Translations under genes and position numbers: made by a program | Part shown: positions 2,172 to 40,316 of the stretch, one piece after another | Numbering within the stretch: position 1 is the first letter of the stretch | Layout: each line of letters starts with the position of its first letter | The notes under the pieces: model-generated | Seen by the model: only the letters and a program-made list of their open reading frames with translations | Databases searched by the model: none | Told to the model about the DNA's origin: nothing | Assembly (NCBI GenBank): GCA_963933205.1 | Contig: CAWVTK010000001.1 | Span: 1 to 40,595, forward strand | Length of the DNA stretch: 40,595 bases | From: an uncultured Flavobacteriales bacterium | Lineage (GTDB): Bacteria > Bacteroidota > Bacteroidia > Flavobacteriales > UBA7430 | Reading direction: 5' to 3'

Positions 2172-2453
2172 TGCTTTGGGGGGTGAGTTTTTACTAATTT
2201 TATACTCGGATCATTTCAATAATCGTACCTAAAATATTTTCTAGGATATTCAGTGCAATCAGGGGGTTTTTATATTCGCTTGTTTTCCAGTACGTTTTTT
2301 ATTACTGGATTAACGAGTACAAATAATCGTTGTCAAATTAAAACAATTAAATAGTAGTGCCCATTTATGTATTGGTAACTTATCTGTGCATGCTTATGTC
2401 TTTTGTCGAAAATTCACTAGTTTTCCGGAGAATATTAATTAACCAATGGACTT

Positions 2454-4607
2454 ATGAAAAATTCAATTTTTATTGTATTTATTCTACTAGCGACAACTGC
2501 CTGCCAAACTGCCCAAAACAAACAAATGAAGGAACCAATTGCTAAGGCAATACCCAGCCAACTAAATTACCACTCAGATACATTAATTGATGATTATTTT
2601 TGGATGCGTCTTTCAGATGCGCAAAAAGAGTCTGAACAAGCAGATCCACAAACCCAAGATGTTTTAGATTATTTGGTAGAAGAGAATTCCTTTTTAGATG
2701 CTCACATGTCCGATACAAAAGTTCTACAGGATACTCTTTTCCAAGAGTACGTCTCGCGTATAAAACAAGACGACGAATCGGTTCCTTACTCAGACAACGG
2801 TTTTACTTATTATTCAAAATTTGAAGAGGGAGAAGACTACAAACGTTACTTCCGTAAAAAAAACGAAGGCGCGGGTAAAGAGGAACTACTATTGGATTTA
2901 CCAGAGCTTGCAAAAGATCAAAATTATTTTGCTCTTGGAGATTGGTCCGTCAGTACAAACAATCAGCTTTTAGCTTTTAGTACCGATCTAGTTTCTCGAA
3001 GAGAATACACCATTTACATCAAAAACTTGGCTACCGGAGAAGTTTTTAAAGACAAAATTGAAAATACCACCGGAGGTATAACTTGGGCAAATGATAATAA
3101 AACGCTCTTTTATGTAAAGCAAGACGAGGCTACACTGCGTTCGCATAAAATTTTTAAACACGTTCTTGGAACCGATGCTTCTATGGATGAATTAGTGTTT
3201 GAAGAAAAAGATGAGACCTTTAGCTGTTCTGTTTATAAATCTAAAAGTAGTAAGTACTTATTTATAGCTTCGTATCAAACCCTATCCACCGAATTTAGAT
3301 TTCTAGACGCAGATAATCCGGCAGGTGAGTGGTCTATTGTTCAACCTAGAGAAAGAAATCTAGAATATTCTGTAAGTCATTACAAAGATTCGTTTTTTAT
3401 TCGAACCAATTTAGATGCAAAAAATTATCAACTGATGAAAACATCAGTAGCTAAACCATCCAAGGAAAACTGGAAAGTTCTTATTCCACATAGAGAGAAT
3501 GTATTTTTAAGTGGCTTAAACATATTTAAAAACTACTTAGTGCTTAACGAGCGAAAAAATGGTTTAACAGAAATGCGCGTTATGAACTGGGAAACGGGCG
3601 AAGAGCACTACATTAGTTTTAATGATCCTACGTACTCTCTTTTTGCAAATATTAATCTTGATTTTGATACCGATTTATTTAGATTTTCATACACATCATT
3701 AACCACTCCGAGTTCTGTATACGAATACAACTTGTTTTCTAAAGAACGTGTTTTGTTAAAACAACAAGAAGTACTGGGAGGAAAGTTTGATGCTAGTAAT
3801 TACGTTTCAGAACGATTGTATGCAACAAGTAGAGACGGCGAAACACAAGTACCCATATCTATTGTATATAAAAAAGGATTTACAAAAGATGGATCTGCTC
3901 CAGTTTTATTATATGGTTACGGTTCTTATGGCGCAAATATGAACCCTTACTTTAGCACAAGTAGATTAAGTTTATTAGATCGTGGCTTTGCTTTTGCCAT
4001 AGCACATGTGCGTGGCGGACAAGAAATGGGTAGAGATTGGTATGAAAATGGAAAACTACTGAAGAAGAAAAACACGTTTAATGATTTTATAGATTGCGGA
4101 AAGTTTTTGGTAGATACTAAATTTACCAGCCCTTCTCATTTATATGCTCAAGGTGGAAGTGCTGGTGGACTTTTAATGGGGGCTATTATTAATATGGAAC
4201 CCAACTTATGGAACGGCGTTATTGCGGGAGTTCCTTTTGTAGATGTGATTAATACAATGTGGGATGAAACAATACCACTTACTACTGGAGAATTTGATGA
4301 GTGGGGAAACCCTAAAGACAAAGTTTATTATGACTATATTAAATCCTACTCGCCATACAACAATGTTCAGAAAATGGACTACCCCAATTTATTGATTACA
4401 ACAGGTTACTGGGATAGCCAAGTTCAGTATTGGGAACCTGCTAAGTGGATTGCAAAACTTAGAGCTTACAGAACCAACACTAATTTATTGATGATGTCTT
4501 GTAATATGGACGTAGGTCATGGCGGTGCTTCTGGAAGGTTTGAAAGTTTAAAAGAAATTGCCTTGGAACATGCTTTTTTATTAAAATTAGAAGACATAAG
4601 TGAGTAA
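2454..4607 (+). CDS. ptrB: S9A serine peptidase, oligopeptidase B (protease II)-like, probable lipoprotein
   Basis: 717 aa ORF with a lipoprotein-type leader MKNSIFIVFILLATTAC. Catalytic Ser motif GGSAGGLLMG, Asp region TTGYWDSQVQYWEPAKWIAKLR, His region MDVGHGGASGRF, plus DEWGNP. As I recall E. coli PtrB, these are close to it rather than to prolyl endopeptidase (GGSNGG). Confidence 0.9.
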   Translation: MKNSIFIVFILLATTACQTAQNKQMKEPIAKAIPSQLNYHSDTLIDDYFWMRLSDAQKESEQADPQTQDVLDYLVEENSFLDAHMSDTKVLQDTLFQEYVSRIKQDDESVPYSDNGFTYYSKFEEGEDYKRYFRKKNEGAGKEELLLDLPELAKDQNYFALGDWSVSTNNQLLAFSTDLVSRREYTIYIKNLATGEVFKDKIENTTGGITWANDNKTLFYVKQDEATLRSHKIFKHVLGTDASMDELVFEEKDETFSCSVYKSKSSKYLFIASYQTLSTEFRFLDADNPAGEWSIVQPRERNLEYSVSHYKDSFFIRTNLDAKNYQLMKTSVAKPSKENWKVLIPHRENVFLSGLNIFKNYLVLNERKNGLTEMRVMNWETGEEHYISFNDPTYSLFANINLDFDTDLFRFSYTSLTTPSSVYEYNLFSKERVLLKQQEVLGGKFDASNYVSERLYATSRDGETQVPISIVYKKGFTKDGSAPVLLYGYGSYGANMNPYFSTSRLSLLDRGFAFAIAHVRGGQEMGRDWYENGKLLKKKNTFNDFIDCGKFLVDTKFTSPSHLYAQGGSAGGLLMGAIINMEPNLWNGVIAGVPFVDVINTMWDETIPLTTGEFDEWGNPKDKVYYDYIKSYSPYNNVQKMDYPNLLITTGYWDSQVQYWEPAKWIAKLRAYRTNTNLLMMSCNMDVGHGGASGRFESLKEIALEHAFLLKLEDISE

Positions 4608-4668
4608 GATGTTTTAAATACAAAGCGTTTGCTTATACCTACATACACTGTACTTACTTTGCGCATAG

Positions 4669-4711
4669 AAAAGCCACCTAATTTGGCTGGCTTTTATCTT
4701 CTGTTTTTTTT
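4669..4711 (+). terminator. Candidate intrinsic terminator after ptrB
   Basis: AAAAGCCA (4669-4676) pairs with TGGCTTTT (4688-4695) across an 11-nt loop. A T-rich stretch including T8 follows shortly downstream. The stem is short and AT-heavy. Confidence 0.45.
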
Positions 4712-5154
4712 GCCTAAAAACATAATTTTAATTATTCATTTGATCAATACATATAGTTAATTTATGAATTAGAGCTTACCATATTTAATTAACTTAACCA
4801 CTCTAATTTTTAAACGTATTAAGCATTGATAAATTAGTTGCTTTTTTAAAAAAAAAAGTGTATTATTTGTGACAACAGAAAATTAAAAATAATAAGAAAA
4901 CGGATAGAATCGAACAACCAAAAAAATGCGACCTATTTTTAGAACAGGAAATTTAAAATACTGAAACATGTAAGGTGCTAAAAATCAAGTTAAAAATTAA
5001 TGGTTTTGGGGTGTCTATTGATTTATTGTAAACTTTTTTACGCAGCAAAATTCGTTGTTTTGTTTTTCAAACAAAATTAACCTCGTTTGAAAAAGAGTTA
5101 CTTAAATTGATTAAATTTCAGATATCTATTGTTAAATATTAATCCCCCTAAAAA

Positions 5155-5736
5155 TTGCCTTTGGAAGAAAATACAAGAAATACAATTTCTAATTTCATCA
5201 AGTTTACGGATAGTGAATGGTTAGTCATCTCGAAAGACTTAATTGAAAAAAAAATTGACAAGGGAGAATTCTTAATTAAAGAAGGCGAGTATTGTAACTA
5301 TATTGCATTTATTGATGAAGGATTATTGAGTTACTACTATCTTGTTGAGGGCAAAAAACACATCCGTGGTTTCTTTTTCGCCAATGATTTTATTTCCAGT
5401 TATACCAGTTTTCTTTCAGATGAAAAATCAAAGGCCTATATTCAAGCATTAGAGAACACATCCATGATGCTAATACACAAGGATAAACTTTCTCAACTCT
5501 ATCAAAAAAATTCTAAATTTCTACAATTAGGTCGAATGCTTACGGAACATTTATTCATGCTGCTTTCAGAAAAATATGAAGCTCTTCTTCTGAAATCTCC
5601 AGAAGAACGCTACCTAAGTTTAATTGAAAATAGACCTAATGTTATTCAAAACATTCCTCAATACATGATTGCTTCGTATTTAGGAATAACACCTGAAGCC
5701 TTAAGTCGAATTCGTAAACGGCTCACCAGGAAGTAA
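5155..5736 (+). CDS. Crp/Fnr-family transcriptional regulator (cNMP-binding domain plus C-terminal HTH)
   Basis: 193 aa. The beta-roll-like N-terminal part (FLIKEGEYCNYIAFIDEGLL...) and the C-terminal HTH (YMIASYLGITPEALSRIRKRL) are typical of Bacteroidota Crp/Fnr proteins. The TTG start at 5155 sits 6 nt after a CCCCC tract, the same geometry seen at other starts in this window. Confidence 0.8.
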   Translation: MPLEENTRNTISNFIKFTDSEWLVISKDLIEKKIDKGEFLIKEGEYCNYIAFIDEGLLSYYYLVEGKKHIRGFFFANDFISSYTSFLSDEKSKAYIQALENTSMMLIHKDKLSQLYQKNSKFLQLGRMLTEHLFMLLSEKYEALLLKSPEERYLSLIENRPNVIQNIPQYMIASYLGITPEALSRIRKRLTRK

Positions 5737-5963: not shown

Positions 5964-6109
5964 CTTTTTCTTAGCACATTTATTGACTACACCAGTCTTA
6001 TAGGCTATAAATATAATTTCGGCGTTTTCAATAAGTTTTTTTTTGCAGACCACTTTTTTTAAATCATTTTCAATAAATTTTTTGCGTTAAACATAAACCT
6101 CCCTCGATT

Positions 6110-12100: not shown

Positions 12101-15100
12101 GCTGATCACTACATTGGTTACAGTGTATCTAATTCGGCTATTAATAACGACGAATGGAATTCTCCACTTATTTCTTTACAAAGTGAAACCGCAGGATTTG
12201 GTTTTTCTATTAGTGAAGGCGTAACGCCAGAGCTGGTACAGTATTTAAATTTTGTGAATACTGGGCCTCTATTTGGAACCGGTTTAGACATTGAAATAGA
12301 TGCTTATCTCAACCTAAATGGAAATAGTCCAGACCCTGTTACGGCTTACGATAATGTAGGTGCAGAGGGCTCTATTGGCGATGGCGAGGCTTCGGGTTCT
12401 ATTTCAAACGGAGTTACTACCGTGGGAGGTAGTGTAGGTTCTTCCAGCGAAGATGGTGTTAATACCGTTTCTGCATCTGGAGATTACTCCAACGGAGTTG
12501 TTAATGCGGGTATTTCTGTCGATATTTCTATTGACGATGATCCTACCAATGATTCTTACGGTAACGAAGAGCAATTAAGTGATTTGTTATTAAATTTTGC
12601 GAGTGTACAAGATTTCACTTCTGTTCCTGGTTTTATAAATTTAAACAATCTAATAGATGATTTAACCTTAGATGTACCAGAAGAATCCGAAACGATTGTT
12701 ATCCCAAGAGATAAGGTTCAGTTTTATGCCCAGCAAATTAAGTTGTGGAAAAGAGCTATGGCCAATAACGAATTGGATAAAATAGAGTCTGAGTTCTTAA
12801 CAAATCATTCCATTAGTGCAGGTGTTTCCATAGAGCAAAGTCACACATCAGTTGGGGCTTACTCCAATACGAATTCTATTACTTACGATCTATCTTCAAC
12901 AAACGCCTTAGGTGGAGATTTCTCAGGGCATCTTGCAGTGATAGGATTTAATGCAGGGTTTTCCTACAACAACAAATACACGCTTGAGTTTAAGACTACC
13001 ACAAATTTGTCTGGACAATCGGTAACCACTACAAACTATAAATTATCCGACAACGATCAAGGAGACATCATTTCTATAGATGTAAACGAATCAAATTACG
13101 GATTCGGTCCTATATTTAAAGTTCAAGCTGGAGCCACCTCTTGTCCTTGGGAAAATGTAGTTAACGCAAAATACATTAGAGACTTTGATTTGTATTTTGA
13201 ATTAAAGTTTTACGACGAGTTTGTAAAAACAGGTTTGGCGATGCCAAGTCAGTTAACGTTGAACTCAAATACATTTGATTTTACCTTCTATGGTTCTTTA
13301 GCTGAAAATGAGCTTAATGTTAAAAAAGCATCTTACGTAGATTATTCTCGCACAACTGCTTTACCGATTAAAAGTGTCTTTGATCAGAAGAGATTGGACG
13401 TTTATAATGCCGTTAAAGAGAGTCTTCTTAACCAACACACCAGTATGTTTGGTTCGGACGCTCCTTACGAACTTTCTGCAAAAACATCTCAAAGAGACAA
13501 GCCTACCTTAGATGTATTTCCTCCTGTTTTATACAATGTTAATGAAAATGAGCAAGCAGCATTCACTTTAACCTTAGGAAATGCTTCAGAAGACAACTCG
13601 AATCGAATGTATAAAATTCGTGTTATTGAAGCAGAGAATCCACATGGAGCTATTTTAAAAATTGATGGTATAAATCCTAACAGAGAGTTTACCGTTCCAG
13701 CTGGAGGCTCGGTTACCAAAACACTTACGGTAGCCAAAGGGCCAGATTCTTTAAACTACGAGAATCTTCAAATCATAATTTACCCAGGTTGTCAATACGA
13801 CTGGGGTACTTCTGATGAATACGATATTGCCGATACAATCTCTTTCAGTACTTATTTCTTACCAACTTGTACAGACATTGTTATACATGATACAGACGAT
13901 GATTGGTTAGTGAATAACGCCGACACAAACTTACTTACTCTTAAATTAGAGGATTACAACATCAACTACTATAGTTTAAGAGATGTATACTTTGATTATA
14001 AATTTGAAAACGAACCTTGGACACCTATAGAGCCACAATCTAATGTGGTTAACCCACATTTCGTAATCAATAATCTAGAGAATTTCAAAACCTTTAGTCC
14101 TTTAGATTTGTATAATTTATTGCACTCGGACTTCAATTTGTCTTCTGTAGTAAATACAGACCTGTACAACCAATTAGAACCTAAGGAAAAATGTAGAGGT
14201 GGTAATTGCGCCATATACAATGCAACTGGACTTAATGTTCATGAAGATTGGATTGCTTGGAAAGCAGTTGATGCTGATACCACTGAATATATTCAAGGTG
14301 AGATCAGTCGTTTAAAAACAACGTACTTGAGTTCGGAAGAAGCAGTTTCAGATAACGAGATGCTTTCTTTGAGAATGGCAAGTACAAATGTTCTTTGGGA
14401 GGTGCCAATGGTGCCAAAAGATGGGAACTATAAAATCCGTGCAAAATCAAATTGCGGCTTTTATACTTCACAAACCAGTAGCCAGCAAGAAGAAATCGCT
14501 GTGTATAGTTTAACTCACGATGTGTTTTCAGATCGAATCCGACCTGAGTTGTTTGGGTCTATTCAACCTACGGATGGAATATTAAATCCGAATGATGACG
14601 TAATCGTAACCTTCAATGAGCCCATCAATGAGATTGCTTTTAATACCTCATCCGCTCAAACGTATGTTGAAGTTATGGCTCGAAAAAACAGAACAGCTCA
14701 TACGCACGATAGCTACCTATATTTTGGATCAGACGATAGTTTAAACATTCCTTCAGGAGTATATCTAAACAACTCTTTTACCATAGAGATGTGGCTAAAG
14801 CCTGAATCAAATGGTGTTTTATTTGAACAATCAAATGGAACCGATTCGGAAGTGATTAAATTGAGTGTTGTTGATTTCGATACGGATCCTAAATTACAGT
14901 TTGAATACATCCACCCAACAGATGAAACCAAAAATCAAATGGTAAACCATTCAATGGAATTACCGAGTACCGGATTCACGCACTTAGCTCTTGCTTACGA
15001 TGCCGTAGATCATCAAATAATTTTCTTAGATGGAACAGGCTCTGTTGCTACACCAAGCTATTCCTTTAATATGAATTATGTAGGCGATGGACCTATTATT

Positions 15101-18007
15101 GCTGGGGCTTTATACAAAGGTGCTATGCACGATTTAAGAGTATGGAGTAAGGTAGCAGGCGATATACTAGCCAATCGTTCTATTAACTTGTCTGGAAAAG
15201 AAGCGAATTTAGTTGGATATTGGCCAATGGATGAGCTTAGGTCAAATCCAAAAGACAAGGCCAGATATAGACATGCACAAACATCTGCACAGTGGGCTGT
15301 AGAAAGTGAAAACAAAGCTCTGAAATTGGAGTACAATCCAGCTTTAATAGAAGACTTCTCGGCTCTTCAAGATTCTTCTACGCTCGCCATTGTAAATGGA
15401 AGTGACTTTACAGTAGAACTTTGGTTTAATACTGATGTTTCAAATAATCAAACCCTTTTATCTTTGGGCTCTTGGGATCTTGGAGATAAGTTTGAAACCT
15501 GGTCTTTTGACATAAACGCTGGAGCAATAGAAATTTTCCAAGGGGATACCATTTATGCACCGGTTTTAAATACCAACTCCACATACAACGATGGAGAATG
15601 GCATCATATGGCCCTGGTTAAAAATGCCCGCTCAAACACCAGACTTTATGTAGATGGTGTAGAAGTGGATCAGGTAGACTCAGAATTTGTGGGAGGTATT
15701 ACATCTTCTTCGACGTATTTAGGTCATCGAAGAATTGTGGATACAGAAACGGCTTCTGTCGGATACACAAACCATTATATGGGATTAATTGACGAGATAA
15801 GAATTTGGAATATCGCAAAGTCTCACGACAGAATATTGTCTGAGATGAACAGTAATATATCCGAAAAGCTTGGTTTGAGTCAGTCTACAGATTTCAATCA
15901 AATTCAAATGAACTCCGAGATCATTAATTCTTCCGAATTAGATGTTCCTTTAATTAGAGCCTCAGAACTTAAAACCTCGGTTTCTTTTCACGACGTTTCC
16001 AATGGAGATCAAATCTCTATTAATTTAACGGAGTCTTTAAGTAGAATTGAAAACACTTCAATTGATTTTACGCTTCAAAAAGTTAGAGATTTATCTGGTA
16101 ACCTGATTGAATCGCCTATTACATGGACTACTTACATAGACAAAAATCAATTGATTTGGGACAATGAGTTTATAGAAATGGAAAAATTACTTAGCGAGTC
16201 TCTTTCGTTCACAACCCACATAATCAATCAAGGTGGTACGGTAGAGAATTTCCAAATCAGTAATTTACCACCTTGGTTAAATGCATACCCTAGCGAAGGA
16301 TTGTTAGATCCAAATTCGTTTACTCAAATTGAGTTTGTTGTAAATGAAGATCTGTTTATTGGCGACTATAAGGAAGACATTTTACTGGTTGGAAACAATG
16401 ACTATGCTGAGCGTATGGAGTTCAATCTTAATGTTGAGATGGAACAACCTGAATATTCTGTTGATCAACAAGACTATGAATATGTAATGAACTTTGTAGG
16501 TAAGGTAACCGTAGAAGGAATTCGTTCTAGAGATGAGAAGGATATATTGTTTGCCTATGTAGGCGAGGAATTAAGAGGAGCAGCTAGTCCAATTTATATT
16601 GAAGAATACGACAGCTATTTAATTTTCCTTTCAGTTTACGGAGATCAAGTAAACGGCGAAGAAGTAAGCTTTAGATTATGGGATGCCAGCGCAGGTAAAT
16701 TCCAAACTAGAGTAAAAATTAATGGTCAGGATCTTCATGATTTCCAACCTAGTTTCGTTATTGGTTCATTTACAGAGCTTACGCGCTTTGAAGCGACCAA
16801 TATTTTAAGACAAGACATCGTTTTAAATGAAGGCTGGAATTGGGTGTCTTTTAACCTAAATTCTTTAGAGGAACAAGACGATTTAGACGATGTATTACAA
16901 GTTTCTACCGTTATGAATCAGGTAGATGGTTCATCCGTTTCTATATTCAAAAATCAATATGCCTTTACTCAATTTGCAGAAATTGATGGATACAATGATA
17001 CCTGGATTGGCTCTTTAACAGAACTTCCTATTACGGATATGTTCATGATTAAAACGCAAAAATCGGATACGATTATTTACGAAGGTAAAATTGTGAATCC
17101 ATCTGAGGTACCAATTGACGTAAGTGCTGGTTGGAACTGGATTAGCTACTTAGGACAAAGAATAATGAGTACGAATGATGCGCTTTCTAGTTTAAATCCT
17201 AGCTCGGGTGATGTAATAAAGAATAAAAGTGCTTTTAGTATGTACGCTTCGGAGAGTCTTGGATGGCTTGGTACTTTAAACAGTATGGAAAGTGGACATG
17301 GATATATGTTAAAAACCGAAAGTACCGGTTCTTTAATTTACCCCGAAAGTTCAATATTTAGAATTCGAGACTACCAACTTAGCAAGAATCAAATTTCCGA
17401 TGAACTTGTTGAAGTGAACAACGCTTTGTATCAAAACTCAATGAGTATGGTTGCGAAAATTGATTTGGAGAAATTTACTCAACCAGATCTTTCAAATGTT
17501 TTAGCCGCTTACAGCGATCAATTGTGTCTGGGTAATATTAATGCTACACAGATCAATGAAGAAGAATCCTTGTACTTCATCACCATTTATGGTGAAGACG
17601 GCTACAATGTTTCGTTTAAATACTTCGATCAGGTTAATGGCGACTCTTTTAATGCAGAAAACACCCTTGAGTTTGAAGCTAATAAATTGATTGGGTCCAT
17701 ACAAGATCCTTATCCGATTATATTAACCGAGAGCCCAGATGATTTTTTGATAGAGTATACTCTAGATGTATATCCAAATCCATTTAAAGAGGAGTTTGAG
17801 GTAGAATTCACACTTGACAATGATGAATTCATTTCTATTGACATCTTTGATGTAACAGGTAGAAAAGTGAAATCTTTATTCAATGGATTACTTAACTCAG
17901 GACTACACAATTTAGATATTGACGCTTCTGATATTGCCAAAGGAAGTTATTTCATTGAATTGAAATTAAACGATTCTAGTTTCAGAAAAATCATTATTAA
18001 ATCATAA
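6110..18007 (+). CDS. Giant (3965 aa) secreted surface protein with FN3-like modules, three LamG (concanavalin A-like) domains, modules B and C, and a type-A T9SS C-terminal sorting domain
   Basis: An uninterrupted 11.9 kb frame in AT-rich DNA. Signal peptide MNVSIFNKFLVFIAFFLFLSNTSFAQ. FN3-like stretches (for example IHLTWNNNSSGVIDHYSIERRQ...YEYRIKA). LamG hallmarks (FTVTFWMK...GVLFS...MDEMVLWRKVLSDEEI, FTIEMWLKP..., FTVELWFN...IDEIRIWNIAKS). The C-terminus is YPNPFKEEFEVEFTL...IDIFDVTGRKVKSLFNG...GSYFIELKLNDSSFRKIIIKS. Confidence 0.93.
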   Translation: MNVSIFNKFLVFIAFFLFLSNTSFAQFSPHNGDIGADESLEWLYDYNGSFKLGVISKNSGNNASAPIAIRISTLIVRDLPCVLGNCNDEPVYWNHVKNLHATNGQFSDLMYIEPTLPGAETTINGWQTLEKIETADGHSTITGSYECCPWYSTCYCPSYTTESRGYDFHVLGRSGEEFKNVTSTINNNYVTVSFDWYDFPENWINSVAQFTVGPQQFQRFIPVDFGTEIAAVTEAVVTDNDVTLVGESSLVSCATDNDHSEKWYAVSQDIYQDTNFHEVDLGDWSDDFSLPILTAENSENIGPNVSFDYKLYYREFGKGCAMQRVFEPEEITTSNLNSIDRIIALNEDDGTVKVLWSHLTSVDKSDVSYIVKRTDDPNLDLEDWRTVYKFEQGVPSINYTLNNGQNVTNGVVDPNDEVNPLGESFSEKGLAGQFIDHTADPEGTYKYSIQAKVITEYVNTNYIQQMESTGAGISFFDDNNQLNIVTPTPLCSGFEIQGVQSIINEEIKFGNEDYEYDNQDHILSFNSPDFFGTQGVSQRVYFYENSELTVPLINPETEEAIIIDGSVSEISGYELPLEDDVFSRTVYGIIEATRTDGKVFRSFKPRVIVGNRKPVPPTVNISSATFEDYVTLRFTNVKEEHNIDHIKIYRTARTPSTSTAPTDSTTYSENFVLDSLILTKEDLQDLIVEAGELVFKDIPDSDNSFSGESTVLCNEYAYQIQSSNCENWSLNDSPFYVEVKGNTKQVTPTLDQDVFELGNPLKDLTSSKGEFPDKIHLTWNNNSSGVIDHYSIERRQYGSEGENAWIQLGSVSTGEKYFQDTYAEANLLYEYRIKAHVGNCETSSPEDPGTQANMVSTHQVGYRRPVGRITGRITYNQTSNPVSDVYVKVEPIINEDQTTNRSLNLESNYGIVRSPIKSDSDLDAFTVTFWMKSMADQQGVLFSRKSTLYDMSLYLDGNAIGYSEYSGSLNETYPAYNLKPEENSWNNVTLTFTTLEDEKQVKFYINGLLMNTYSSQFTPSVFDDFIFGVDRNLNAESSFDGLMDEMVLWRKVLSDEEIQSNYFKFLKTSDDDLIFFIAADEGLGAFSYDISSNTIDVFNKNHLELNSLSLTDTFSIPNHANHFYNDNYNTELLNLDKSTSSGMYDVTNIRYINDGNNFSITPFTILNETYSVIHEFLPAQRTDFIGDQSLLLSAIDFNDLTAITVQGNVFFDVTEENSDVSLIDKTEYQIGVEDVFVKVGGKRIQNDDGEVKTDADGFFSMSIPIGEQCISFEKNGHTFYYGDLEGERDDRYCQEFNFNSEQNLPNFSCNTYKELRGRITGGQMYDSQTIADIQIGFNQSANTIGSVGFDLMPNAASVLDYEGYLVSVQTNVLTGEYHAKLLPIVHKVNSSSWISSNYDVENSYRNQQQLFPTIDMEVKGDNDVNGDFVEEQLSSSIGELASQTITFNKRFDLVYRSNPSILVSQNIAGELAWSTSIGETSIEIDEGFSITTSDSTGYLLGMPVFKEKYGNGTYRYNIEVSEVYTNYGAINSTHDHNSYMYKDQNGASVHDTKQYLNPLQQGDVSIFNTMMKSSTEMMSLSDLNGSVDYEFNPDDPYVFGKEQGYMRKFIIQYQDGSVNAQWPKLSAGQNASTRGDVYAFGDESYGNDFFTFGPQTVDMILRDPSGDGSYSSITEGSTITRTSSVTNVNGYTKDWNFSVGAGLEIGGAIGFSLGAHVETKWSAKAFVTAGMTNSASLTNSSENQITISETYNHTISTNSADWEVGAKGDLYIGESKNLNFGTSKELQFLSTHNCALGGGVFDCLDYPLIKQNKTIRKQYEIDDVTNDTVISILQASALYELSSIPVSNSESIISDSTYSSNGKTYIIHDIEEVGSYQIGTQTAVSIKPGVSTKFAFSNNYIQNYLLTKLALIKNTYLFGEYTVDTDLLPIDHECFGEPSNSTCFDSYEDQSIRNYYTIPETSTEEYYVLPNLTNYDVNTLTAILGSTYQEFQSNFEDADHYIGYSVSNSAINNDEWNSPLISLQSETAGFGFSISEGVTPELVQYLNFVNTGPLFGTGLDIEIDAYLNLNGNSPDPVTAYDNVGAEGSIGDGEASGSISNGVTTVGGSVGSSSEDGVNTVSASGDYSNGVVNAGISVDISIDDDPTNDSYGNEEQLSDLLLNFASVQDFTSVPGFINLNNLIDDLTLDVPEESETIVIPRDKVQFYAQQIKLWKRAMANNELDKIESEFLTNHSISAGVSIEQSHTSVGAYSNTNSITYDLSSTNALGGDFSGHLAVIGFNAGFSYNNKYTLEFKTTTNLSGQSVTTTNYKLSDNDQGDIISIDVNESNYGFGPIFKVQAGATSCPWENVVNAKYIRDFDLYFELKFYDEFVKTGLAMPSQLTLNSNTFDFTFYGSLAENELNVKKASYVDYSRTTALPIKSVFDQKRLDVYNAVKESLLNQHTSMFGSDAPYELSAKTSQRDKPTLDVFPPVLYNVNENEQAAFTLTLGNASEDNSNRMYKIRVIEAENPHGAILKIDGINPNREFTVPAGGSVTKTLTVAKGPDSLNYENLQIIIYPGCQYDWGTSDEYDIADTISFSTYFLPTCTDIVIHDTDDDWLVNNADTNLLTLKLEDYNINYYSLRDVYFDYKFENEPWTPIEPQSNVVNPHFVINNLENFKTFSPLDLYNLLHSDFNLSSVVNTDLYNQLEPKEKCRGGNCAIYNATGLNVHEDWIAWKAVDADTTEYIQGEISRLKTTYLSSEEAVSDNEMLSLRMASTNVLWEVPMVPKDGNYKIRAKSNCGFYTSQTSSQQEEIAVYSLTHDVFSDRIRPELFGSIQPTDGILNPNDDVIVTFNEPINEIAFNTSSAQTYVEVMARKNRTAHTHDSYLYFGSDDSLNIPSGVYLNNSFTIEMWLKPESNGVLFEQSNGTDSEVIKLSVVDFDTDPKLQFEYIHPTDETKNQMVNHSMELPSTGFTHLALAYDAVDHQIIFLDGTGSVATPSYSFNMNYVGDGPIIAGALYKGAMHDLRVWSKVAGDILANRSINLSGKEANLVGYWPMDELRSNPKDKARYRHAQTSAQWAVESENKALKLEYNPALIEDFSALQDSSTLAIVNGSDFTVELWFNTDVSNNQTLLSLGSWDLGDKFETWSFDINAGAIEIFQGDTIYAPVLNTNSTYNDGEWHHMALVKNARSNTRLYVDGVEVDQVDSEFVGGITSSSTYLGHRRIVDTETASVGYTNHYMGLIDEIRIWNIAKSHDRILSEMNSNISEKLGLSQSTDFNQIQMNSEIINSSELDVPLIRASELKTSVSFHDVSNGDQISINLTESLSRIENTSIDFTLQKVRDLSGNLIESPITWTTYIDKNQLIWDNEFIEMEKLLSESLSFTTHIINQGGTVENFQISNLPPWLNAYPSEGLLDPNSFTQIEFVVNEDLFIGDYKEDILLVGNNDYAERMEFNLNVEMEQPEYSVDQQDYEYVMNFVGKVTVEGIRSRDEKDILFAYVGEELRGAASPIYIEEYDSYLIFLSVYGDQVNGEEVSFRLWDASAGKFQTRVKINGQDLHDFQPSFVIGSFTELTRFEATNILRQDIVLNEGWNWVSFNLNSLEEQDDLDDVLQVSTVMNQVDGSSVSIFKNQYAFTQFAEIDGYNDTWIGSLTELPITDMFMIKTQKSDTIIYEGKIVNPSEVPIDVSAGWNWISYLGQRIMSTNDALSSLNPSSGDVIKNKSAFSMYASESLGWLGTLNSMESGHGYMLKTESTGSLIYPESSIFRIRDYQLSKNQISDELVEVNNALYQNSMSMVAKIDLEKFTQPDLSNVLAAYSDQLCLGNINATQINEEESLYFITIYGEDGYNVSFKYFDQVNGDSFNAENTLEFEANKLIGSIQDPYPIILTESPDDFLIEYTLDVYPNPFKEEFEVEFTLDNDEFISIDIFDVTGRKVKSLFNGLLNSGLHNLDIDASDIAKGSYFIELKLNDSSFRKIIIKS
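8807..9305 (+). other. LamG / concanavalin A-like lectin domain 1
   Basis: NRSLNLESNYGIV...AFTVTFWMKSMADQQGVLFS...WNNVTLTF...KFYINGLL...FDGLMDEMVLWRKVLSDEEIQSNY. This is the typical LamG_3 pattern: a candidate sequence, then FT.E.W.., then .DE.R.W...LS..EI. Confidence 0.7.
14714..15235 (+). other. LamG / concanavalin A-like lectin domain 2
   Basis: YLYFGSDDSLNIPSGVYLNNSFTIEMWLKPESNGVLFEQ...FTHLALAYD...GAMHDLRVWSKV...LVGYWPMDE. Confidence 0.7.
15317..15868 (+). other. LamG / concanavalin A-like lectin domain 3
   Basis: ALKLEYNPALIED...GSDFTVELWFNTDVSNNQTLLSLG...GEWHHMALVKNARSNTRLYVDGVEV...MGLIDEIRIWNIAKSHDRILSEM. Confidence 0.7.
16475..17721 (+). other. B-C-C-B module block immediately before the sorting domain of the 3965-aa protein
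   Basis: B-like segments at 16475-16798 (YVMNFVGKVTVEG..DILFAYVGEELRGAAS..LIFLSVYGDQVNGEEVSFRLWD) and 17435-17721 (NSMSMVAKIDL..VLAAYSDQLCLGN..YFITIYGEDGYNVSFKYFD). Divergent C-like segments at 16829-17089 (EGWNWVSFNL...WIGSLTEL...MFMIKT) and 17123-17350 (AGWNWISYLG...GDVIKNKSAF...WLGTLNSMESGHGYMLKT). Confidence 0.55.
17756..18004 (+). other. Type-A T9SS C-terminal sorting domain (Por secretion tail)
   Basis: YTLDVYPNPFKEEFEVEFTLDNDEFISIDIFDVTGRKVKSLFNGLLNSGLHNLDIDASDIAKGSYFIELKLNDSSFRKIIIKS matches the familiar YPNP...(I/V)xIxDxxGRxV...G.Y(F/L)...K(I/L)(I/V)K pattern. Confidence 0.85.
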
Positions 18008-18019
18008 TCCCCCAGAAAT

Positions 18020-28087: not shown

Positions 28088-28164
28088 TGAATTTTATTTT
28101 AGTATTAAAATTAGTACTTTTGGTTAATATTTATTTTTTTGTAGAATTAAACCCCCTTCACCAG

Positions 28165-30294
28165 ATGAAAAAATTAGTAATTTTTTGTGCAATTATATCC
28201 CTCTTTTCAAGTACTAGCTTATTTGCTCAATGCGAAGCAGACCATACTGTATTTTTAAGTAACTTCGAATTTGCACCTTCCCAATTGGTTGTTTTGCCAG
28301 GAGAGTCAGTAGGTTTCTATAATCTAGAGGGTACTCATAATGTTAACGGCATTGTAAATTCCGTAACCGAAGAACCCTTTAATAATCCAACTGACTTTTT
28401 TCTCGATCAAACTATTGGCAGCGAAGAAGGCGTATGCATGGGAACAATCGTACTAGAAACGCCAGGTGTTTACAATTTTGACTGCAGCCTAAACTTTAAT
28501 GCTTTAAATGGAATGAATCTTTCCATTACGGTTGATGCATTTGATTTAAACGAACAGTTTCTCGAACTGCAAAACAATCCCGATGTTTCGGTCTTTAACT
28601 CTTACTACGCTTTCCAATCTTTTACACCTACATTCTTAACAAGTGAGGGGCCATGGACGCTTTTTGTTCCTAATGATGCAGCTGTATCTGAAATCCTCGA
28701 ATACATGAACTTGGGTCAGTTTGATGCTCTAGGTATTCCCGACTTTCCAGAAATAATGCAATTCCATATTGCCGATGGTTTGTATATGGCTGAGGATTTG
28801 ACGGACGGTTTGGTACTAAACTCTGTACAGGGTCAAACTTTAAATATTTCAGAAAACCAGGGCAATGTTTTTGTTGAAAACGCACAAATTATTAGCACCA
28901 ATTACACAGCATACAATGGCGTTATACATGTTATAGATCAATGTCTTGCTCCAGATAGCCTTCCTGGCGCACATGTAATGCAGGTGATCGCAGAAAGTCC
29001 GAACCACCAAATTTTTGAAGACGCAATTATTGCAGCAAGTTTAGACGATGAACTTTCTTTTCAAGGAACCATAGACGATTCTTTCGATGGTCCGGGCCCT
29101 TGGACTGTTTTTGCGCCTACCGATGAGGCTTTCCAGATTTTTGCGGATGAGATGGATTGGACTATTGATGAATTACTTAACTCTCAGTTTTTATACAATA
29201 TTGTAAATCAACATGTTGTAAATGGCTGTGTTAATAATTTTAATCCGCCCAATGAAATCGACGATGATTGTAACGGCGGATTAAGTGATGCCATTACGAG
29301 TTCTATTATATACGGGGGTACGGTTGCTTCAAATCTTGAGGGAGATCCTATTCAGTTTTCTACTAATGATAACGATAGTACGATTACTGTTATTGGAATT
29401 CAAAATGCTGTGGATATAATAGTAAGCGACTTATTTGCTTACAATGGCGTTGTTCATGTAGTTGATGCTGTACTTAAGCCTAAAATACCAACGCAAGAAG
29501 GCTCTTGTGGATTGTGGCGATTAGAACTGCAGAGTTCCGACCCAGAAGGATGGCAAGGTTCTTCCGTATACTTAATAGTGAACTCTATTGTACTAGAAAC
29601 AGTTACCATTTTCGATGGGAATTCTCAAACCTATGAATTTGCTCTTGATAGCGGCGATGTTGTCGATCTTTTGTATAACGCCAACGGAGGAAGCTCTTCT
29701 GACCATTCATATAAATTATACGATGCAGACAACTCAATACTAGTTCAAACAAGTGGAAATTCCAATAATTACGGCCCTTCCAGTTTTTATGGGGTAGATG
29801 CATGTCCAACACCAGTAGCAAACGATTCAATTTGCGGCGAAATCACTATAAAATTGTTTAATGATTATGGTATTGGTTGGTTGGCAAGTTCTCTGGAAGT
29901 TTTCAGAAACGGTGCTTTAGACATTTCATTACTAATGCCTCTTGGTTATGGGCCGCAAATAACTACCATCAGCTCTAACTATAATGATAGTTTTGATTTT
30001 ATTGTAAATAGTAACACTCCATACCCAGAAGAAATTGGCTACCAAGTTTTTGATGTTTCAGGTGCGCTTGTTGTAAATGAAAACAACTTTAATGTTGCGC
30101 CTCAAAGTACAACAGATCTCGTTTTTTGCGAATCGGAAGAGGGTGGAGTTGGACTAAGTGAGCTCGAAATGAAACAAGGGCGTTTGGTTAAAATGATTGA
30201 TGTTTTAGGAAGAGAACACACAAGACATGTAAAAGGAACCATTCTTTTTTATATGTACGACAATGGAAGGGTAGAGAAACGATTGAACCTATAA
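28165..30294 (+). CDS. Secreted protein with a cupredoxin-like N-domain, two FAS1 (fasciclin) domains, two degenerate GW (module D-like) units and a short T9SS-tail-like C-terminus
   Basis: The track ORF begins at 28084 (TTG/ATG). The internal ATG at 28165 gives a canonical signal peptide MKKLVIFCAIISLFSSTSLFAQ and sits 8 nt after a CCCCC tract. FAS1 hallmarks are WTLFVPNDAAVSE...YNGVIHVIDQCLAP and WTVFAPTDEAFQ...YNGVVHVVDAVLKP. The C-terminus is ...LVKMIDVLGREHTRHVKGTILFYMYDNGRVEKRLNL. Confidence 0.85.
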   Translation: MKKLVIFCAIISLFSSTSLFAQCEADHTVFLSNFEFAPSQLVVLPGESVGFYNLEGTHNVNGIVNSVTEEPFNNPTDFFLDQTIGSEEGVCMGTIVLETPGVYNFDCSLNFNALNGMNLSITVDAFDLNEQFLELQNNPDVSVFNSYYAFQSFTPTFLTSEGPWTLFVPNDAAVSEILEYMNLGQFDALGIPDFPEIMQFHIADGLYMAEDLTDGLVLNSVQGQTLNISENQGNVFVENAQIISTNYTAYNGVIHVIDQCLAPDSLPGAHVMQVIAESPNHQIFEDAIIAASLDDELSFQGTIDDSFDGPGPWTVFAPTDEAFQIFADEMDWTIDELLNSQFLYNIVNQHVVNGCVNNFNPPNEIDDDCNGGLSDAITSSIIYGGTVASNLEGDPIQFSTNDNDSTITVIGIQNAVDIIVSDLFAYNGVVHVVDAVLKPKIPTQEGSCGLWRLELQSSDPEGWQGSSVYLIVNSIVLETVTIFDGNSQTYEFALDSGDVVDLLYNANGGSSSDHSYKLYDADNSILVQTSGNSNNYGPSSFYGVDACPTPVANDSICGEITIKLFNDYGIGWLASSLEVFRNGALDISLLMPLGYGPQITTISSNYNDSFDFIVNSNTPYPEEIGYQVFDVSGALVVNENNFNVAPQSTTDLVFCESEEGGVGLSELEMKQGRLVKMIDVLGREHTRHVKGTILFYMYDNGRVEKRLNL
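28603..29481 (+). other. Two tandem FAS1 (fasciclin-1) domains, about 28603-28953 and 28972-29481
   Basis: Both the H1-like motifs (T(L/V)F(V/A)P(N/T)D(A/E)A(V/F)) and the H2-like motifs (YNGV(I/V)HV(I/V)D.(C/V)L.P) are present in each copy. Confidence 0.85.
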
Positions 30295-33881: not shown

Positions 33882-33916
33882 GGCTTTATTAAGTATTAAT
33901 TTATCCCCTCATAAAA

Positions 33917-34648: not shown

Positions 34649-34664
34649 GACTTTACAAAACACT

Positions 34665-37769: not shown

Positions 37770-37771
37770 AC

Positions 37772-37821: not shown

Positions 37822-37913
37822 ACATAAGCCAATGTAGAGCTGAAATAACAACAAACATCTCTGACATAGTAATGTAAGCGTATCTTGTACTAGTTTAATT
37901 TTATTTATTTTTC

Positions 37914-39752: not shown

Positions 39753-40007
39753 TGTTTTTATAGGCTTTTTAACAATTATACACGATTCGTGAGTTCATTT
39801 TTTTTTGCTTCAAATTTCGGCTGTCACCTAATTTGTGTGTTATTATTTTTACAATGCTTAAGATGTTATTGTATGTCAGTACTTTAATGTAAAAGTTACA
39901 CACAATACTATCTTAACATCTATTTACAAGACTTGGTTTTATAATAGTATGTAATAACTAATATTACATCATTAGTTATGTTACTCATATGGGGATGGGA
40001 GTACTAA

Positions 40008-40109
40008 ATGAATTTCTATAAATCAAATTCATTTATTGTTATCGCACATTTGTTGAATTTTGGGCTTTTGCTCGAATATTTTAAGCGTAATAATTTTCTA
40101 ATCATTTAA
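40008..40109 (+). CDS. Possible 33-aa hydrophobic small ORF immediately upstream of an orphan terminator. Speculative.
   Basis: My translation is MNFYKSNSFIVIAHLLNFGLLLEYFKRNNFLII*. The stop (40107-40109) is followed by TAATCCCGGGGGGATTC and the terminator at 40124. Confidence 0.15.
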   Translation: MNFYKSNSFIVIAHLLNFGLLLEYFKRNNFLII

Positions 40110-40123
40110 TCCCGGGGGGATTC

Positions 40124-40161
40124 AAAGAAGCCGCTTTTTAGTGGCTTCTTTATTTTTGTTT
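40124..40161 (+). terminator. Intrinsic terminator with no annotated gene directly upstream (372 nt after the LuxR-type stop)
   Basis: AAAGAAGCCGC (40124-40134) pairs with GTGGCTTCTTT (40141-40151), including one G-T wobble, around the 6-nt loop TTTTTA. ATTTTTGTTT follows. Confidence 0.7.
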
Positions 40162-40316
40162 ACTCTAGAATTGCTCTGTTTCTTTTTCAATCTAATCGGT
40201 TTTATTAAATTCAAACCTACTCATTGCTCTCTTTTTAGCTCTATTAATGTCCCCGTTATTTATTCTAAATGTTGTAGTCAATTGTTTATATTTACAAAAA
40301 TTAGTCCTCTCAGCTT

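What the first reader, a model, noticed from the sequence alone, without database searches (positions are those of the whole stretch)
2172..40316. C5-6 / CCUCC-like tracts at the Shine-Dalgarno position of most family genes in a genome that lacks SD sequences
Seen in the sequence (sense strand):
- CCCCCC, complement of 2178-2183, 6 nt before the ATG of 1-2171c
- CCCCC 5144-5148, 6 nt before the TTG at 5155 (Crp/Fnr)
- CCTCCCTC 6098-6105, 4 nt before the ATG at 6110
- CCCCC 18009-18013, 6 nt before the ATG at 18020
- CCCCC 28152-28156, 8 nt before the ATG at 28165
- CCCCTC 33905-33910, 6 nt before the ATG at 33917
- CCTCTC 40306-40311, 5 nt before the ATG at 40317

Two of these share the longer context TAATCCCCC (5142-5148 and 18006-18013). 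Scanning by eye, I found no sense-strand run of five or more C on an annotated transcript except at these start-proximal sites. One further C5 exists on the minus strand at complement 2264-2268, in the intergenic leader about 95 nt upstream of the 1-2171c start.

ptrB, the crt genes, the TPR-LuxR gene, 27083 and 34665 lack the tract. The motif resembles the anti-SD sequence itself (CCUCC), not its complement, so it cannot act as an SD.

Inference: it may be a translation-control element, for example a binding site for a G-rich sRNA or a poly(C)-binding protein, that marks this regulon.
Basis: partly seen in the sequence, partly recalled or inferred. Interest (0 to 1): 0.6.

Follow-up and report, generated by a model that had tools for sequence, protein, structure and literature searches.

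The report
Poly-C leader tag and G-loop RNAs
Runs of five or more C just before the start codon mark a family of secreted-protein genes in an uncultured marine Flavobacteriales lineage that has no ribosome-binding (Shine-Dalgarno) sites, and the same lineage carries undescribed small-RNA-like genes with a matching G-rich hairpin loop, which points to a new RNA-based control circuit that no experiment has yet tested.

Summary
The C5-C6 tracts are real and not chance. Genome-wide, C>=5 runs are about 6-fold enriched in the 20 nt before start codons (22 seen, 3.5 expected, p=3e-11), against zero G runs there. Only homopolymers of five or more are enriched.

Tract genes mostly encode signal-peptide proteins (19/25). 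They concentrate in one lineage-specific family of secreted multidomain proteins (12/36 versus 13/1574, p=9e-15). Canonical T9SS cargo is not enriched (3/81).

The tract recurs before signal-peptide genes in related genera. In one ortholog group the leader is better conserved than the protein, while the tract varies from C4 to C11.

New here: a conserved module of a G-rich-loop hairpin (AAUCC-U-G6-8-AUU) followed by a terminator. It occurs in 14-15 of 17 family genomes (34 hits, 3 control), is rare elsewhere in the order and is absent from Rfam. Sigma-54-like or sigma-A-type promoter boxes sit at fixed distances upstream. One copy lies in the window (40108-40161).

Best reading (about 0.45): the C tract is the docking site of these G-loop small RNAs at the translation start region.

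The parts
2178..2183 (-). C6 tract, 6 nt upstream of the ATG (2171) of the PA-domain secreted protein gene 3-2171c
   Evidence: Homologues in G008, G009, G013 and G016 carry C5-C6 at the same place behind AACT(C/T)TAA. The closest ortholog, in G001, has only C3.
2262..2266 (-). Second C5 run about 90 nt upstream of the same start; role unknown
   Evidence: No start codon follows it. It is not part of the start-proximal class.
5144..5148 (+). C5 tract in TATTAATCCCCC, 6 nt before the TTG at 5155 (or 12 nt before the TTG at 5161) of a Crp/Fnr-type cNMP-binding regulator gene
   Evidence: The 12-nt word TATTAATCCCCC is the exact reverse complement of part of the own-genome G-loop RNA on contig C26 (GGGGGGGATTAATAG).
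6098..6105 (+). CCTCCCTC 4 nt before the ATG at 6110 (3965-aa protein with laminin-G domains and a T9SS type A tail). Doubtful member.
   Evidence: The class is not enriched. Predicted pairing to the G run with wobbles is -13.5 kcal/mol, in the top 3% of start regions.
18009..18013 (+). C5 tract (ATAATCCCCCAGAAAT), 6 nt before the ATG at 18020 of the 3002-aa family protein. It follows directly on the stop codon of the upstream gene.
   Evidence: CCCCCAG is complementary to the CUGGGGG of the G-loop RNAs. No extended complementarity for this site on its own (z=+0.29).
28152..28156 (+). C5 tract 8 nt before the ATG at 28165 (fasciclin protein with the mini-CTD tail), 10 nt downstream of a -7-like box TTTTTTTG
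   Evidence: An independent JGI contig has the same C5. The tract is absent from orthologs in five related genomes.
33905..33910 (+). CCCCTC 6 nt before the ATG at 33917 (small T9SS type A tail protein). Doubtful member.
40306..40311 (+). CCTCTC 5 nt before the ATG at 40317 (family gene cut by the window end). Doubtful member.
   Evidence: Predicted pairing is -14.2 kcal/mol, in the top 2%.
40108..40161 (+). G-loop hairpin (AAUCCC-GGG-GGGAUU) followed directly by an intrinsic terminator. This is the window's copy of the candidate G-loop small RNA module.
   Evidence: fold -23.2 kcal/mol, z=-4.5. It is one of 5 copies in this genome and about 34 in the family. No clear promoter box lies upstream of this copy, so it may be the 3' end of a longer transcript.

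Best explanation
The start-proximal C tract is the core of a conserved leader element in the mRNAs of a lineage-specific set of secreted proteins. It sits where an SD would be, at about -4 to -12, just 3' of the A-rich -11 to -13 motif that Bacteroidia use in place of an SD.

Most likely it is the docking site for a family of small RNAs found here. Each is about 55-90 nt. Each consists of a short hairpin with a run of G in its loop (AAUCC-U-G6-8-AUU) followed by an intrinsic terminator. Each is transcribed from either a sigma-54-type or a sigma-A-type promoter.

G-loop to C-tract pairing, often extended by CU:AG on one side and UUA(G)A:U(C/U)UAA on the other, would cover the ribosome landing site and lower translation of the tagged genes. 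An effect on mRNA stability is also possible.

Shown by computation:
- the position-specific enrichment of the tract;
- its link to the gene family;
- its conservation together with length variation;
- the existence, conservation and family-restricted distribution of the G-loop modules, and their promoter boxes.

Inferred:
- that the modules are transcribed;
- that they pair with the leaders;
- the direction of the effect.
For: 1. Enrichment. 22 C5+ runs lie at -20..-1 against 3.5 expected, and no G5+ runs. The distance to the ATG is constrained, while the distance to the -7 box is variable.

2. Gene set. 19/25 tract genes have signal peptides, against 31% background (p=6e-6). 12/36 genes of the module family carry a tract against 13/1574 others (OR 60, p=9e-15). 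In the mini-CTD subset the figure is 7/14.

3. Conservation.
- In G004, G007, G009 and G013, about half of all CCCCC-N1-8-ATGAA matches precede signal peptides.
- The leader TTTTTTAACTAAA-C7-11-(A)GT(T)ATG is kept in 7 genomes of 3 genera, although the proteins are only 25-65% identical.
- The 2171c group keeps AACT(C/T)TAA-N-C5-6 in 4 other genomes.

4. Partner RNA.
- ATCC-N0-3-GGGGGGA gives 26 hits against 5 control in the family, nearly all followed by a terminator. With 2 mismatches allowed, 34 hits against 3 control in 14 of 17 genomes; G015 has a further copy, seen only with the first pattern.
- Across 136 genomes of other families in the order the element is only sporadic.
- No Rfam family matches.
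- Promoter boxes sit at fixed distances. TGGCAC-N5-TTGC (10/10 match in this genome's C44 copy) ends 36-37 nt before the hairpin. TGGCAA-N5-TnGC ends 25-28 nt before it. TAnnTTTG ends 11-13 nt before it, with a conserved upstream box AAAAATGAGTGA-N3-CACCTAT.
- 13 of 33 predicted pairs show compensatory changes in only six sequences.
- The folds are strong, z from -4.5 to -6.8.
- The genome encodes RpoN and an enhancer-binding protein.

5. Complementarity beyond the homopolymer.
- 'AG' follows 7/25 tracts against 21/339 other runs (p=0.0014).
- In the flank-shuffle test the mean z is -0.48 (p=0.03), and p=0.001 against control runs.
- The G008 leader TAAACTCTAACCCCC is a 15-nt perfect complement of the conserved GGGGG-UUAGAGUUUA.

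6. Co-distribution. G-loop copy number and the excess of C-tract starts correlate across the 17 genomes (Spearman 0.50, p=0.04).
Against: - No expression data of any kind.
- In the folded RNA most G's of the run pair with the CC of the stem. Only 3-6 G's are in the loop, and the flanks that complement the leaders lie inside the stem. Extended pairing would therefore need the stem to open.
- G5:C5 pairing is trivially predicted for any C run. The extended complementarity is modest, and individually absent for the window's own genes (z from -0.97 to +0.29).
- Because the hairpin is nearly palindromic, leader and RNA could share sequence by common descent rather than by selection for pairing.
- G010 shows an excess of C-tract starts but no G-loop copy. 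G009 has many tract genes and only two copies.
- The tract is missing from the closest orthologs of two window genes.
- The window's G-loop copy has no recognisable promoter.
- The co-distribution correlation is weak, and the copy numbers were counted by eye.
Confidence: 0.45

Rival explanations
1. Purely cis-acting start-region element. The C run is a structure-free spacer between the A-rich -11 to -13 motif and the AUG. In a G-poor leader, C pairs with nothing. An A run would pair with the U-rich signal-peptide codons, and a U run with the AAA/AAG lysine codons. The tract would tune ribosome loading directly, with no trans factor.
For: - Replacing the tract in silico by A, U or G makes the -30..+45 region more structured (ddG -0.5, -1.2 and -3.9 kcal/mol) and the -12..+12 region less accessible (all p<0.05).
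- Tract genes have the least structured start regions: -6.3 kcal/mol, against -7.8 for other signal-peptide genes and -8.9 for the rest.
- The 5' edge of the tract sits at a median of -12, next to the A-rich motif.
- Adenines at -3, -6, -12 and -13 and low structure tune initiation in F. johnsoniae (PMC6847099).
Against: - The C-to-A effect is small, 0.5 kcal/mol.
- It does not explain why only perfect runs of five or more are enriched, while C4 and mixed C/U words are not.
- It does not explain why one gene family is singled out.
- It does not explain why a matching G-loop RNA family co-occurs.
- The distance from the A motif to the AUG varies from 8 to 14 nt in one ortholog group, so exact spacing is not conserved.
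Confidence: 0.2
2. Slippage-prone contingency tract. The homopolymer is kept because changes in its length stochastically tune expression of surface or secreted proteins in the population, acting as a rheostat.
For: - One gene's tract reads C11 in this genome, C10 in a contig with 98% protein identity, C7GC at 97%, then C5, C8, C6, C7 and C4 in more distant copies, with near-identical flanks.
- Orthologs in G007 and G013 differ (C7 against C5).
- All runs of seven or more in the genome are non-coding, and start-proximal runs are longer than others (p=0.004).
- Secreted and surface proteins are the usual clients of such switches (general knowledge; PMC5320596 for Neisseria).
Against: - 18 of 25 tracts are only C5 and 4 are C6, too short for high-rate slippage.
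- Independent assemblies show the same length at 28152 (C5) and at the C74 gene (C7).
- The tract lies in the 5' UTR. It is not in an ORF or a promoter spacer, so no ON/OFF frame or spacing logic is evident.
- Within-population heterogeneity could not be tested.
- This reading is compatible with the best explanation: tract length would set pairing strength.
Confidence: 0.12
3. No present function. The leader, signal peptide and N-terminal domain were copied together as the gene family expanded, and the C run is an inherited relic that drifts by slippage.
For: - Half of the tract genes are paralogs that share C-terminal modules, or the N-terminal NTGSNMT domain.
- The tract is lost in the closest orthologs of 28165 and 2171c.
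Against: - The leader is more conserved than proteins that are 25-31% identical.
- Flanks around the tract are otherwise unalignable between paralogs, yet the run persists.
- 13 tract genes lie outside the family, including type B T9SS proteins and a Crp-type regulator.
- Position relative to the ATG is constrained.
Confidence: 0.1
4. Binding site of a poly(C)-binding protein (KH, cold-shock or S1-like), or a transcription-level signal (initial transcribed sequence, Rho loading, or recruitment of a NusG paralog for very long genes).
For: - The homopolymer threshold of five fits a protein site.
- Tract genes are long, median 672 aa against 298 aa.
- The region is C-rich and G-poor, as Rho loading sites are (general knowledge).
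Against: - No candidate protein was identified.
- A 5-nt tract is far shorter than a Rho loading site.
- The distance to the promoter box is variable, 2-65 nt, while the distance to the ATG is constrained. That argues for a translation-level role.
Confidence: 0.08

Closest known systems
C-rich-loop small RNAs of Gram-positive bacteria (RsaE/RoxS, mycobacterial 6C) that pair with G-rich SD sequences
   Same: A short homopolymer-like seed is displayed in a hairpin loop. It pairs with the SD position of many mRNAs, works without Hfq, and blocks initiation (PMC12205990, PMC6486639).
   Different: The polarity is mirrored here: G in the RNA loop and C in the mRNA. The target is not an SD, because this lineage has none. 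There is no sequence or Rfam relationship.
GcvB and the C/A-rich elements of periplasmic-transporter mRNAs in enterobacteria (my own knowledge)
   Same: A G-rich seed recognises C-rich, unstructured elements just upstream of start codons in a regulon of exported proteins. Those elements also act as translation enhancers in their own right.
   Different: GcvB uses a linear G/U-rich region and Hfq. Here the seed is a G run in a small hairpin, and the target is a perfect C run. The two are not homologous.
Qrr sibling small RNAs of Vibrio (sigma-54 and LuxO dependent; my own knowledge)
   Same: Several paralogous short RNAs per genome share an invariant seed. At least two subclasses carry GG-N10-GC sigma-54-type promoter boxes at a fixed distance.
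   Different: There is no sequence similarity. Other copies use a sigma-A -7 box. No link to quorum sensing is known.
FopS small RNA family of Bacteroides thetaiotaomicron
   Same: A multi-copy small RNA family in Bacteroidota that represses translation of outer-membrane or secreted protein genes (cited in PMC12205990).
   Different: FopS RNAs are linked to polysaccharide-utilisation loci and target susC-type mRNAs. No G-loop or C-tract logic has been described for them, and the G-loop RNAs have no Rfam hit.
Homopolymeric-tract contingency loci (Neisseria, Helicobacter; poly-G near tpr gene starts in Treponema pallidum)
   Same: A G/C homopolymer next to the start of surface or secreted protein genes, with length differences between close strains (PMC5320596, PMC7864442).
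   Different: Most tracts here are only C5-C6. They lie in the 5' UTR, not in an ORF or promoter spacer. No ON/OFF logic is visible.
Kozak-like A-rich start regions of Flavobacterium johnsoniae
   Same: The same SD-less background, with A-rich -11 to -13 and A at -3 and -6 (PMC6847099).
   Different: That work describes adenines as positive determinants. A C run filling -4 to -10 in a gene subset is not described there.

Membership tests
Shine-Dalgarno sequence | Purine-rich word complementary to the CCUCC at the 3' end of 16S rRNA, 5-10 nt upstream of the start | tested here: not met
   The tract is C-rich, with the same sense as the anti-SD. GGAGG and AGGAG are depleted at -15..-1 genome-wide.
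Homopolymeric-tract phase-variation locus | Tract long enough for frequent slippage (about 7-8 nt or more) | tested here: not met
   Of the 25 tracts, 18 are C5, 4 are C6, 2 are C7 and 1 is C11. One further C9 tract was missed by the gene caller.
Homopolymeric-tract phase-variation locus | Length polymorphism between closely related strains | tested here: inconclusive
   Met for the C36 gene: C11, C10 and C7GC at 97-100% protein identity. Not seen at 28152 or at the C74 gene in other assemblies. Read-level data were unavailable.
Homopolymeric-tract phase-variation locus | Tract placed where its length switches expression (in an ORF or between promoter elements) | tested here: not met
   The tract lies between the -7 box and the ATG, at a variable distance from the box.
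Small-RNA target site in a translation initiation region (seed-match regulon) | A conserved small-RNA gene with its own promoter and terminator | tested here: met
   By sequence only. Promoter boxes lie at fixed distances, terminators and a 5' hairpin covary, and the module occurs in 14-15 of 17 family genomes.
Small-RNA target site in a translation initiation region (seed-match regulon) | Accessible conserved seed complementary to conserved target sites | tested here: inconclusive
   The G run is invariant and complementary. Only 3-6 G's are unpaired in the predicted loop. Complementarity beyond the run is modest.
Small-RNA target site in a translation initiation region (seed-match regulon) | Small RNA and targets co-occur phylogenetically | tested here: met
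   Both are enriched in family f1 and not in the rest of the order. Within the family, Spearman 0.50, p=0.04. G010 is an exception.
Small-RNA target site in a translation initiation region (seed-match regulon) | Small RNA is expressed and changes target translation or stability | not testable with these tools
The organism is uncultured.
T9SS cargo regulon | Tract genes carry a type A (TIGR04183) or type B (TIGR04131) C-terminal sorting domain | tested here: not met
   There are 67 type A and 14 type B hits in the genome. Only 3 belong to tract genes (C93, C74, C115). The tails of ten tract proteins show no significant hit.
Any Rfam RNA family | Covariance-model match at the gathering score | tested here: not met
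   The window gives none. Eighteen G-loop loci give only sub-threshold matches driven by terminators.

The most novel reading that the evidence does not exclude
A mirror-image of SD/anti-SD logic has evolved in an SD-less lineage. mRNAs of a lineage-specific secretome carry a poly-C tag at the vacant SD position. A set of sibling small RNAs with a G-run hairpin loop reads that tag to gate translation of the whole secretome. Some of these RNAs are sigma-54-driven and some sigma-A-driven with a conserved operator. Slippage in the tag (C4 to C11) continuously retunes each gene's coupling to the circuit.
Probability: 0.35. Interest if true: 0.85.

Novelty: new variant of a known kind. Interest (0 to 1): 0.7.

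Why it matters
Bacteroidota translate without Shine-Dalgarno pairing. How they regulate initiation gene by gene is largely unknown, and very few small RNAs have been characterised outside Bacteroides.

If the reading is true, this would be a simple, sequence-readable post-transcriptional regulon in abundant uncultured marine Flavobacteriales. It would have three parts: a poly-C tag on secreted-protein mRNAs, a new family of G-loop small RNAs, and two kinds of promoter feeding the circuit. It would give a directly testable model for chaperone-independent RNA control in an SD-less phylum. It would also give a way to predict co-regulated secretome genes from sequence alone.

Even if the RNA partner turns out to be unrelated, two results stand. 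The C tract is a genuine, conserved and previously undescribed feature of start regions. The G-loop-plus-terminator module is a new conserved RNA motif.

Tried and rejected
- Start-independent test (C run followed by any ATG that opens a long frame). Internal ATGs swamped it, so I replaced it with gene-based profiles.
- Fixed geometry with the -7 promoter box. Rejected: the distance ranges from 2 to 65 nt.
- CCUCC-like or C4 words as part of the class. Not enriched. Family genes without C5 show only a weak trend for G-pairing potential (p=0.07).
- Canonical T9SS cargo as the marked set. Rejected.
- Direct search for a linear complement (CTGGGGGTTT and similar). No clear locus was found. The partner emerged only from G runs followed by terminators.
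- Exact 15-mer scan of all species genomes. Chance hits swamped it. It served only to name G001 as an uncultured Flavobacteriales MAG.
- Exact-protein look-ups for the C11 and one C7 gene found nothing.
- Literature searches found no description of poly-C leaders, or of sigma-54 or G-rich small RNAs, in Flavobacteriia.
- The first orthologs checked, those of the fasciclin gene, lack the tract. That first pointed to a non-conserved feature. Later ortholog groups overturned this.

Full report
**Setting**

The window is contig C1 of a 2.03-Mb, 233-contig assembly, 88% complete and 36% G+C. Near-identical genes occur on JGI and Tara/ENA marine metagenome contigs. One same-genus relative is labelled only as an uncultured Flavobacteriales MAG.

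No gene caller is installed, so I built a simple one: a hexamer coding score plus an iterated start model. It gives 1770 ORFs, 1610 of them with modelled starts. The start profile is the Bacteroidia type, with A-rich -11 to -13, A at -3 and no SD. This matches what is published for Flavobacterium johnsoniae (PMC6847099). Some starts are wrong, for example 34007 instead of 33917, and the C9 tract gene on contig C47 was missed.

**Observation**

In the window the plus strand has only three C5+ runs, and all three lie 6-8 nt (6-12 nt by my own start calls) before starts. The minus-strand C6 at 2178-2183 lies 6 nt before the 2171c start.

Genome-wide there are 364 C5+ runs on both strands. Runs starting at -20..-1 of modelled starts number 22. 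The 80 positions from -100 to -21 hold 14, so 3.5 are expected (Poisson p=3e-11). G5+ runs in the same 20 positions number 0.

Exact C4, CCTCC, and CC[CT]CC beyond the C5 cases are not enriched. The signal is therefore a homopolymer of five or more. They could still pair with a G run through G-U wobbles, and they rank in the top 2-3% for that.

Four of the 25 tract genes lie in this window (p=4e-5).

**Which genes carry the tract**

- 19 of 25 encode signal-peptide-like N-termini, against 31% background (p=6e-6). The genes are long, median 672 aa against 298 aa.
- Canonical T9SS sorting domains (67 type A, 14 type B) are present in only three tract genes.
- Instead, the tract concentrates in a lineage-specific family of multidomain secreted proteins that share unassigned modules.
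  - One module is a roughly 45-aa C-terminal tail, ..LVKVVNVLGQEV..KG..LFYIY.DGSVEK.. It occurs in 14 genes, 7 of them with a tract.
  - The other is a YLPxWNFNGIGxLxxGxGYQIK module, in 27 genes.
  - In the union, 12 of 36 genes carry a tract, against 13 of 1574 others (OR 60, p=9e-15).
- Several tract genes also share an N-terminal NTGSNMT domain.
- Outside the family, the tract precedes type B T9SS proteins, a PA-domain protein, small secreted proteins and a few cytoplasmic proteins, including the window's Crp/Fnr-type regulator.

**Anatomy**

The distance from the tract end to the ATG is mostly 1-8 nt, and the tract's 5' edge has a median position of -12. A Bacteroidetes -7 box (TAnnTTTG) lies 2-65 nt upstream of the tract. 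The tract therefore sits in a short 5' UTR, tied to the start codon and not to the promoter. The tract is preceded by A-rich sequence, and 'AG' follows it unusually often: 7/25 against 21/339 other C5+ runs (p=0.0014).

**Conservation**

- Orthologs of the fasciclin gene (28165) in five related genomes lack the tract. The closest ortholog of 2171c has only C3. The tract is therefore gained and lost.
- It is nevertheless a trait of the whole GTDB family, which holds 17 genomes.
  - CCCCC-N1-8-ATGAA outnumbers the G version and the reversed control in this genome (28 against 8 and 6). The same holds in several other genera but not in other families of the order.
  - In G004, G007, G009 and G013, about half of all such matches are followed by obvious signal peptides, with tracts of C5 to C9.
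- For the gene with the C11 tract (contig C36), the leader TTTTTTAACTAAA-Cn-(A)GT(T)ATG and a -7 box about 45 nt upstream are kept in seven genomes of three genera, although the proteins are only 25-65% identical.
- Metagenome contigs give n = 11 (this genome), 10 (98% protein identity), 7 plus GC (97%), 5, 8, 6 and 4. The presence of the tract is conserved while its length is unstable.
- The 2171c group keeps AACT(C/T)TAA-N-C5-6 in G008, G009, G013 and G016.

**A matching partner**

I looked at the C/G runs that are not start-proximal and found small hairpins ATCC-(N)-GGGGGG-AT directly followed by intrinsic terminators. One is in the window at 40108-40161.

- Distribution in the family. ATCC-N0-3-GGGGGGA gives 26 hits against 5 for the reversed control, and nearly all are followed within 5-20 nt by a GC hairpin and a T run. 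AATCCTGGGGGGGATT with up to two mismatches gives 34 hits against 3, in 14 of 17 genomes. G015 has a further copy seen only with the first pattern.
- Distribution in the order. In 136 genomes of other families there are 27 scattered hits against 8 control. The 15 family genomes sampled give 17 hits against 0.
- No Rfam family matches.
- The core sequence is nearly invariant, while the terminator stems covary.
- Upstream, three promoter contexts recur at fixed distances.
  1. TGGCA(C/T)-N5-TTG(C/T) ends 36-37 nt before the hairpin, downstream of a conserved gene, with a covarying extra hairpin in between. The C44 copy in this genome matches the sigma-54 consensus 10/10. In six sequences, 13 of 33 predicted pairs show compensatory changes.
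  2. TGGCAA-N5-T(A/C)GC ends 25-28 nt before the hairpin, with a direct repeat TTGTTAAnGnnTTGTTAT about 80 nt upstream.
  3. A sigma-A -7 box lies 11-13 nt before the hairpin, with a conserved box AAAAATGAGTGA-N3-CACCTAT about 25 nt further up. These copies occur as tandem pairs in six genomes.
- The genome encodes RpoN and an enhancer-binding protein.
- Predicted folds are strong, z from -4.5 to -6.8.

These features are those of small-RNA genes of about 55-90 nt.

**Does the RNA match the leaders?**

The G run is complementary to the C tract by construction. Four observations go beyond that.

- CU before the G run matches the frequent AG after the tract.
- The conserved 3' flank GGGGG-UUAGAGUU is the reverse complement of the recurrent leader motif AACU(C/U)UAA-CCCCC. 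One leader is a perfect 15-nt complement, and others need G-U wobbles.
- The Crp-gene leader TATTAATCCCCC is a perfect 12-nt complement of the C26 copy.
- A shuffle test that keeps the run and permutes the flanks gives a modest but significant excess of pairing energy for start-proximal tracts. The mean z is -0.48 (p about 0.03), against +0.22 for other C runs (p=0.001).

G-loop copy number and the excess of C-tract starts correlate across the 17 genomes (rho 0.50, p=0.04).

Several weaknesses remain.

- Only 3-6 G's are predicted to be unpaired, and the complementary flanks lie in the stem.
- The window's own leaders show no individual excess.
- The near-palindromic hairpin means that shared descent could mimic complementarity.
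- G010 is an exception to the co-distribution.

**Mechanism chosen**

I take the tract to be the core of a leader element that G-loop small RNAs recognise. Pairing over about -4 to -20 would hide the ribosome landing site in an organism that depends on an open, A-rich leader, so repression is the default expectation.

This mirrors the C-rich-loop RNAs that mask G-rich SD sequences in Gram-positive bacteria (PMC12205990, PMC6486639). It also resembles GcvB acting on C/A-rich elements. I put this at about 0.45.

**Rivals**

- Purely cis, structure-free spacer (0.2). In-silico replacement of the tract increases structure, but only by 0.5 kcal/mol for A.
- Slippage rheostat (0.12). It is compatible with the main model and is supported by the C4-C11 series. 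Most tracts, however, are only C5.
- Inherited relic (0.1).
- Protein site or transcription-level signal (0.08).

**Verdict**

The T9SS link and the CCUCC-like members are not supported. Neither the poly-C leader nor the G-loop RNA appears in Rfam or in the literature I could search. The finding is best classed as a new variant of small-RNA control of translation initiation. It awaits transcript mapping and reporter tests.

Noticed in passing
L017 2911-2917 versus L018 2911-2918 (ENA and Tara contigs of the contig C74 locus): The gene downstream of C74_1729_4230 starts ATGTT followed by A6 in one assembly and A7 in the other. A6 keeps a signal peptide (MLKNIGFFVIFLATFEFALSQ) in frame, while A7 breaks it. 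This could be a poly-A frame switch or an assembly error.
   Followed up: partly
C-termini of window 28165-30294 and of 13 other genes in the genome (for example C36_13249_10334, C45_8306_3663): An unassigned tail of about 45 aa..LVKVVNVLGQEV..KG..LFYIY.DGSVEK.., ends 14 secreted proteins. It resembles the last strands of a T9SS type A sorting domain but fails TIGR04183 and Pfam. It may be a new sorting signal.
   Followed up: partly
L237 121-180 and 641-700; L238 101-170 and 521-590; also L100 and L101: A conserved box AAAAATGAGTGA-N3-CACCTAT lies about 25 nt upstream of the -7 box of the tandem G-loop RNA genes in several genera. It is a candidate operator for an unknown regulator.
   Followed up: no
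L102, L103, L105, L106 and L107, about 80 nt upstream of the G-loop hairpin: A direct repeat TTGTTAAnGnnTTGTTAT precedes the TGGCAA-N5-TnGC box. It may be the binding site of a sigma-54 activator.
   Followed up: no
G004:C25:10724-11243 (L022 and L036): The G004 ortholog of the C11-tract gene matches in two pieces in different frames (open frames of 88 and 154 aa). This suggests a frameshift or an assembly error early in the gene.
   Followed up: no
Genome contig C47 around 13487-13500: A C9 tract lies 3 nt before ATGAAGAAG (MKKLFLLFTLITCNPLFSQC.., NTGSNMT domain). My gene caller missed it and placed the start 66 nt downstream.
   Followed up: partly
Window 40119-40030, minus strand: On the strand opposite the G-loop module, CCCCCCGGGATTAA is followed by an ATG that opens a 29-codon frame (MIRKLLRLKYSSKSPKFNKCAITINEFDL). 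This is probably chance, but it shows that the palindromic element can mimic a tract-bearing leader on the other strand (read by eye).
   Followed up: no
Order-level genomes of family f11 (G026, G069, G080, G108, G116): A related word ATCCGCTGGGGGGAT recurs in several genomes of one other family of the order. It may be a distant relative of the G-loop element.
   Followed up: no
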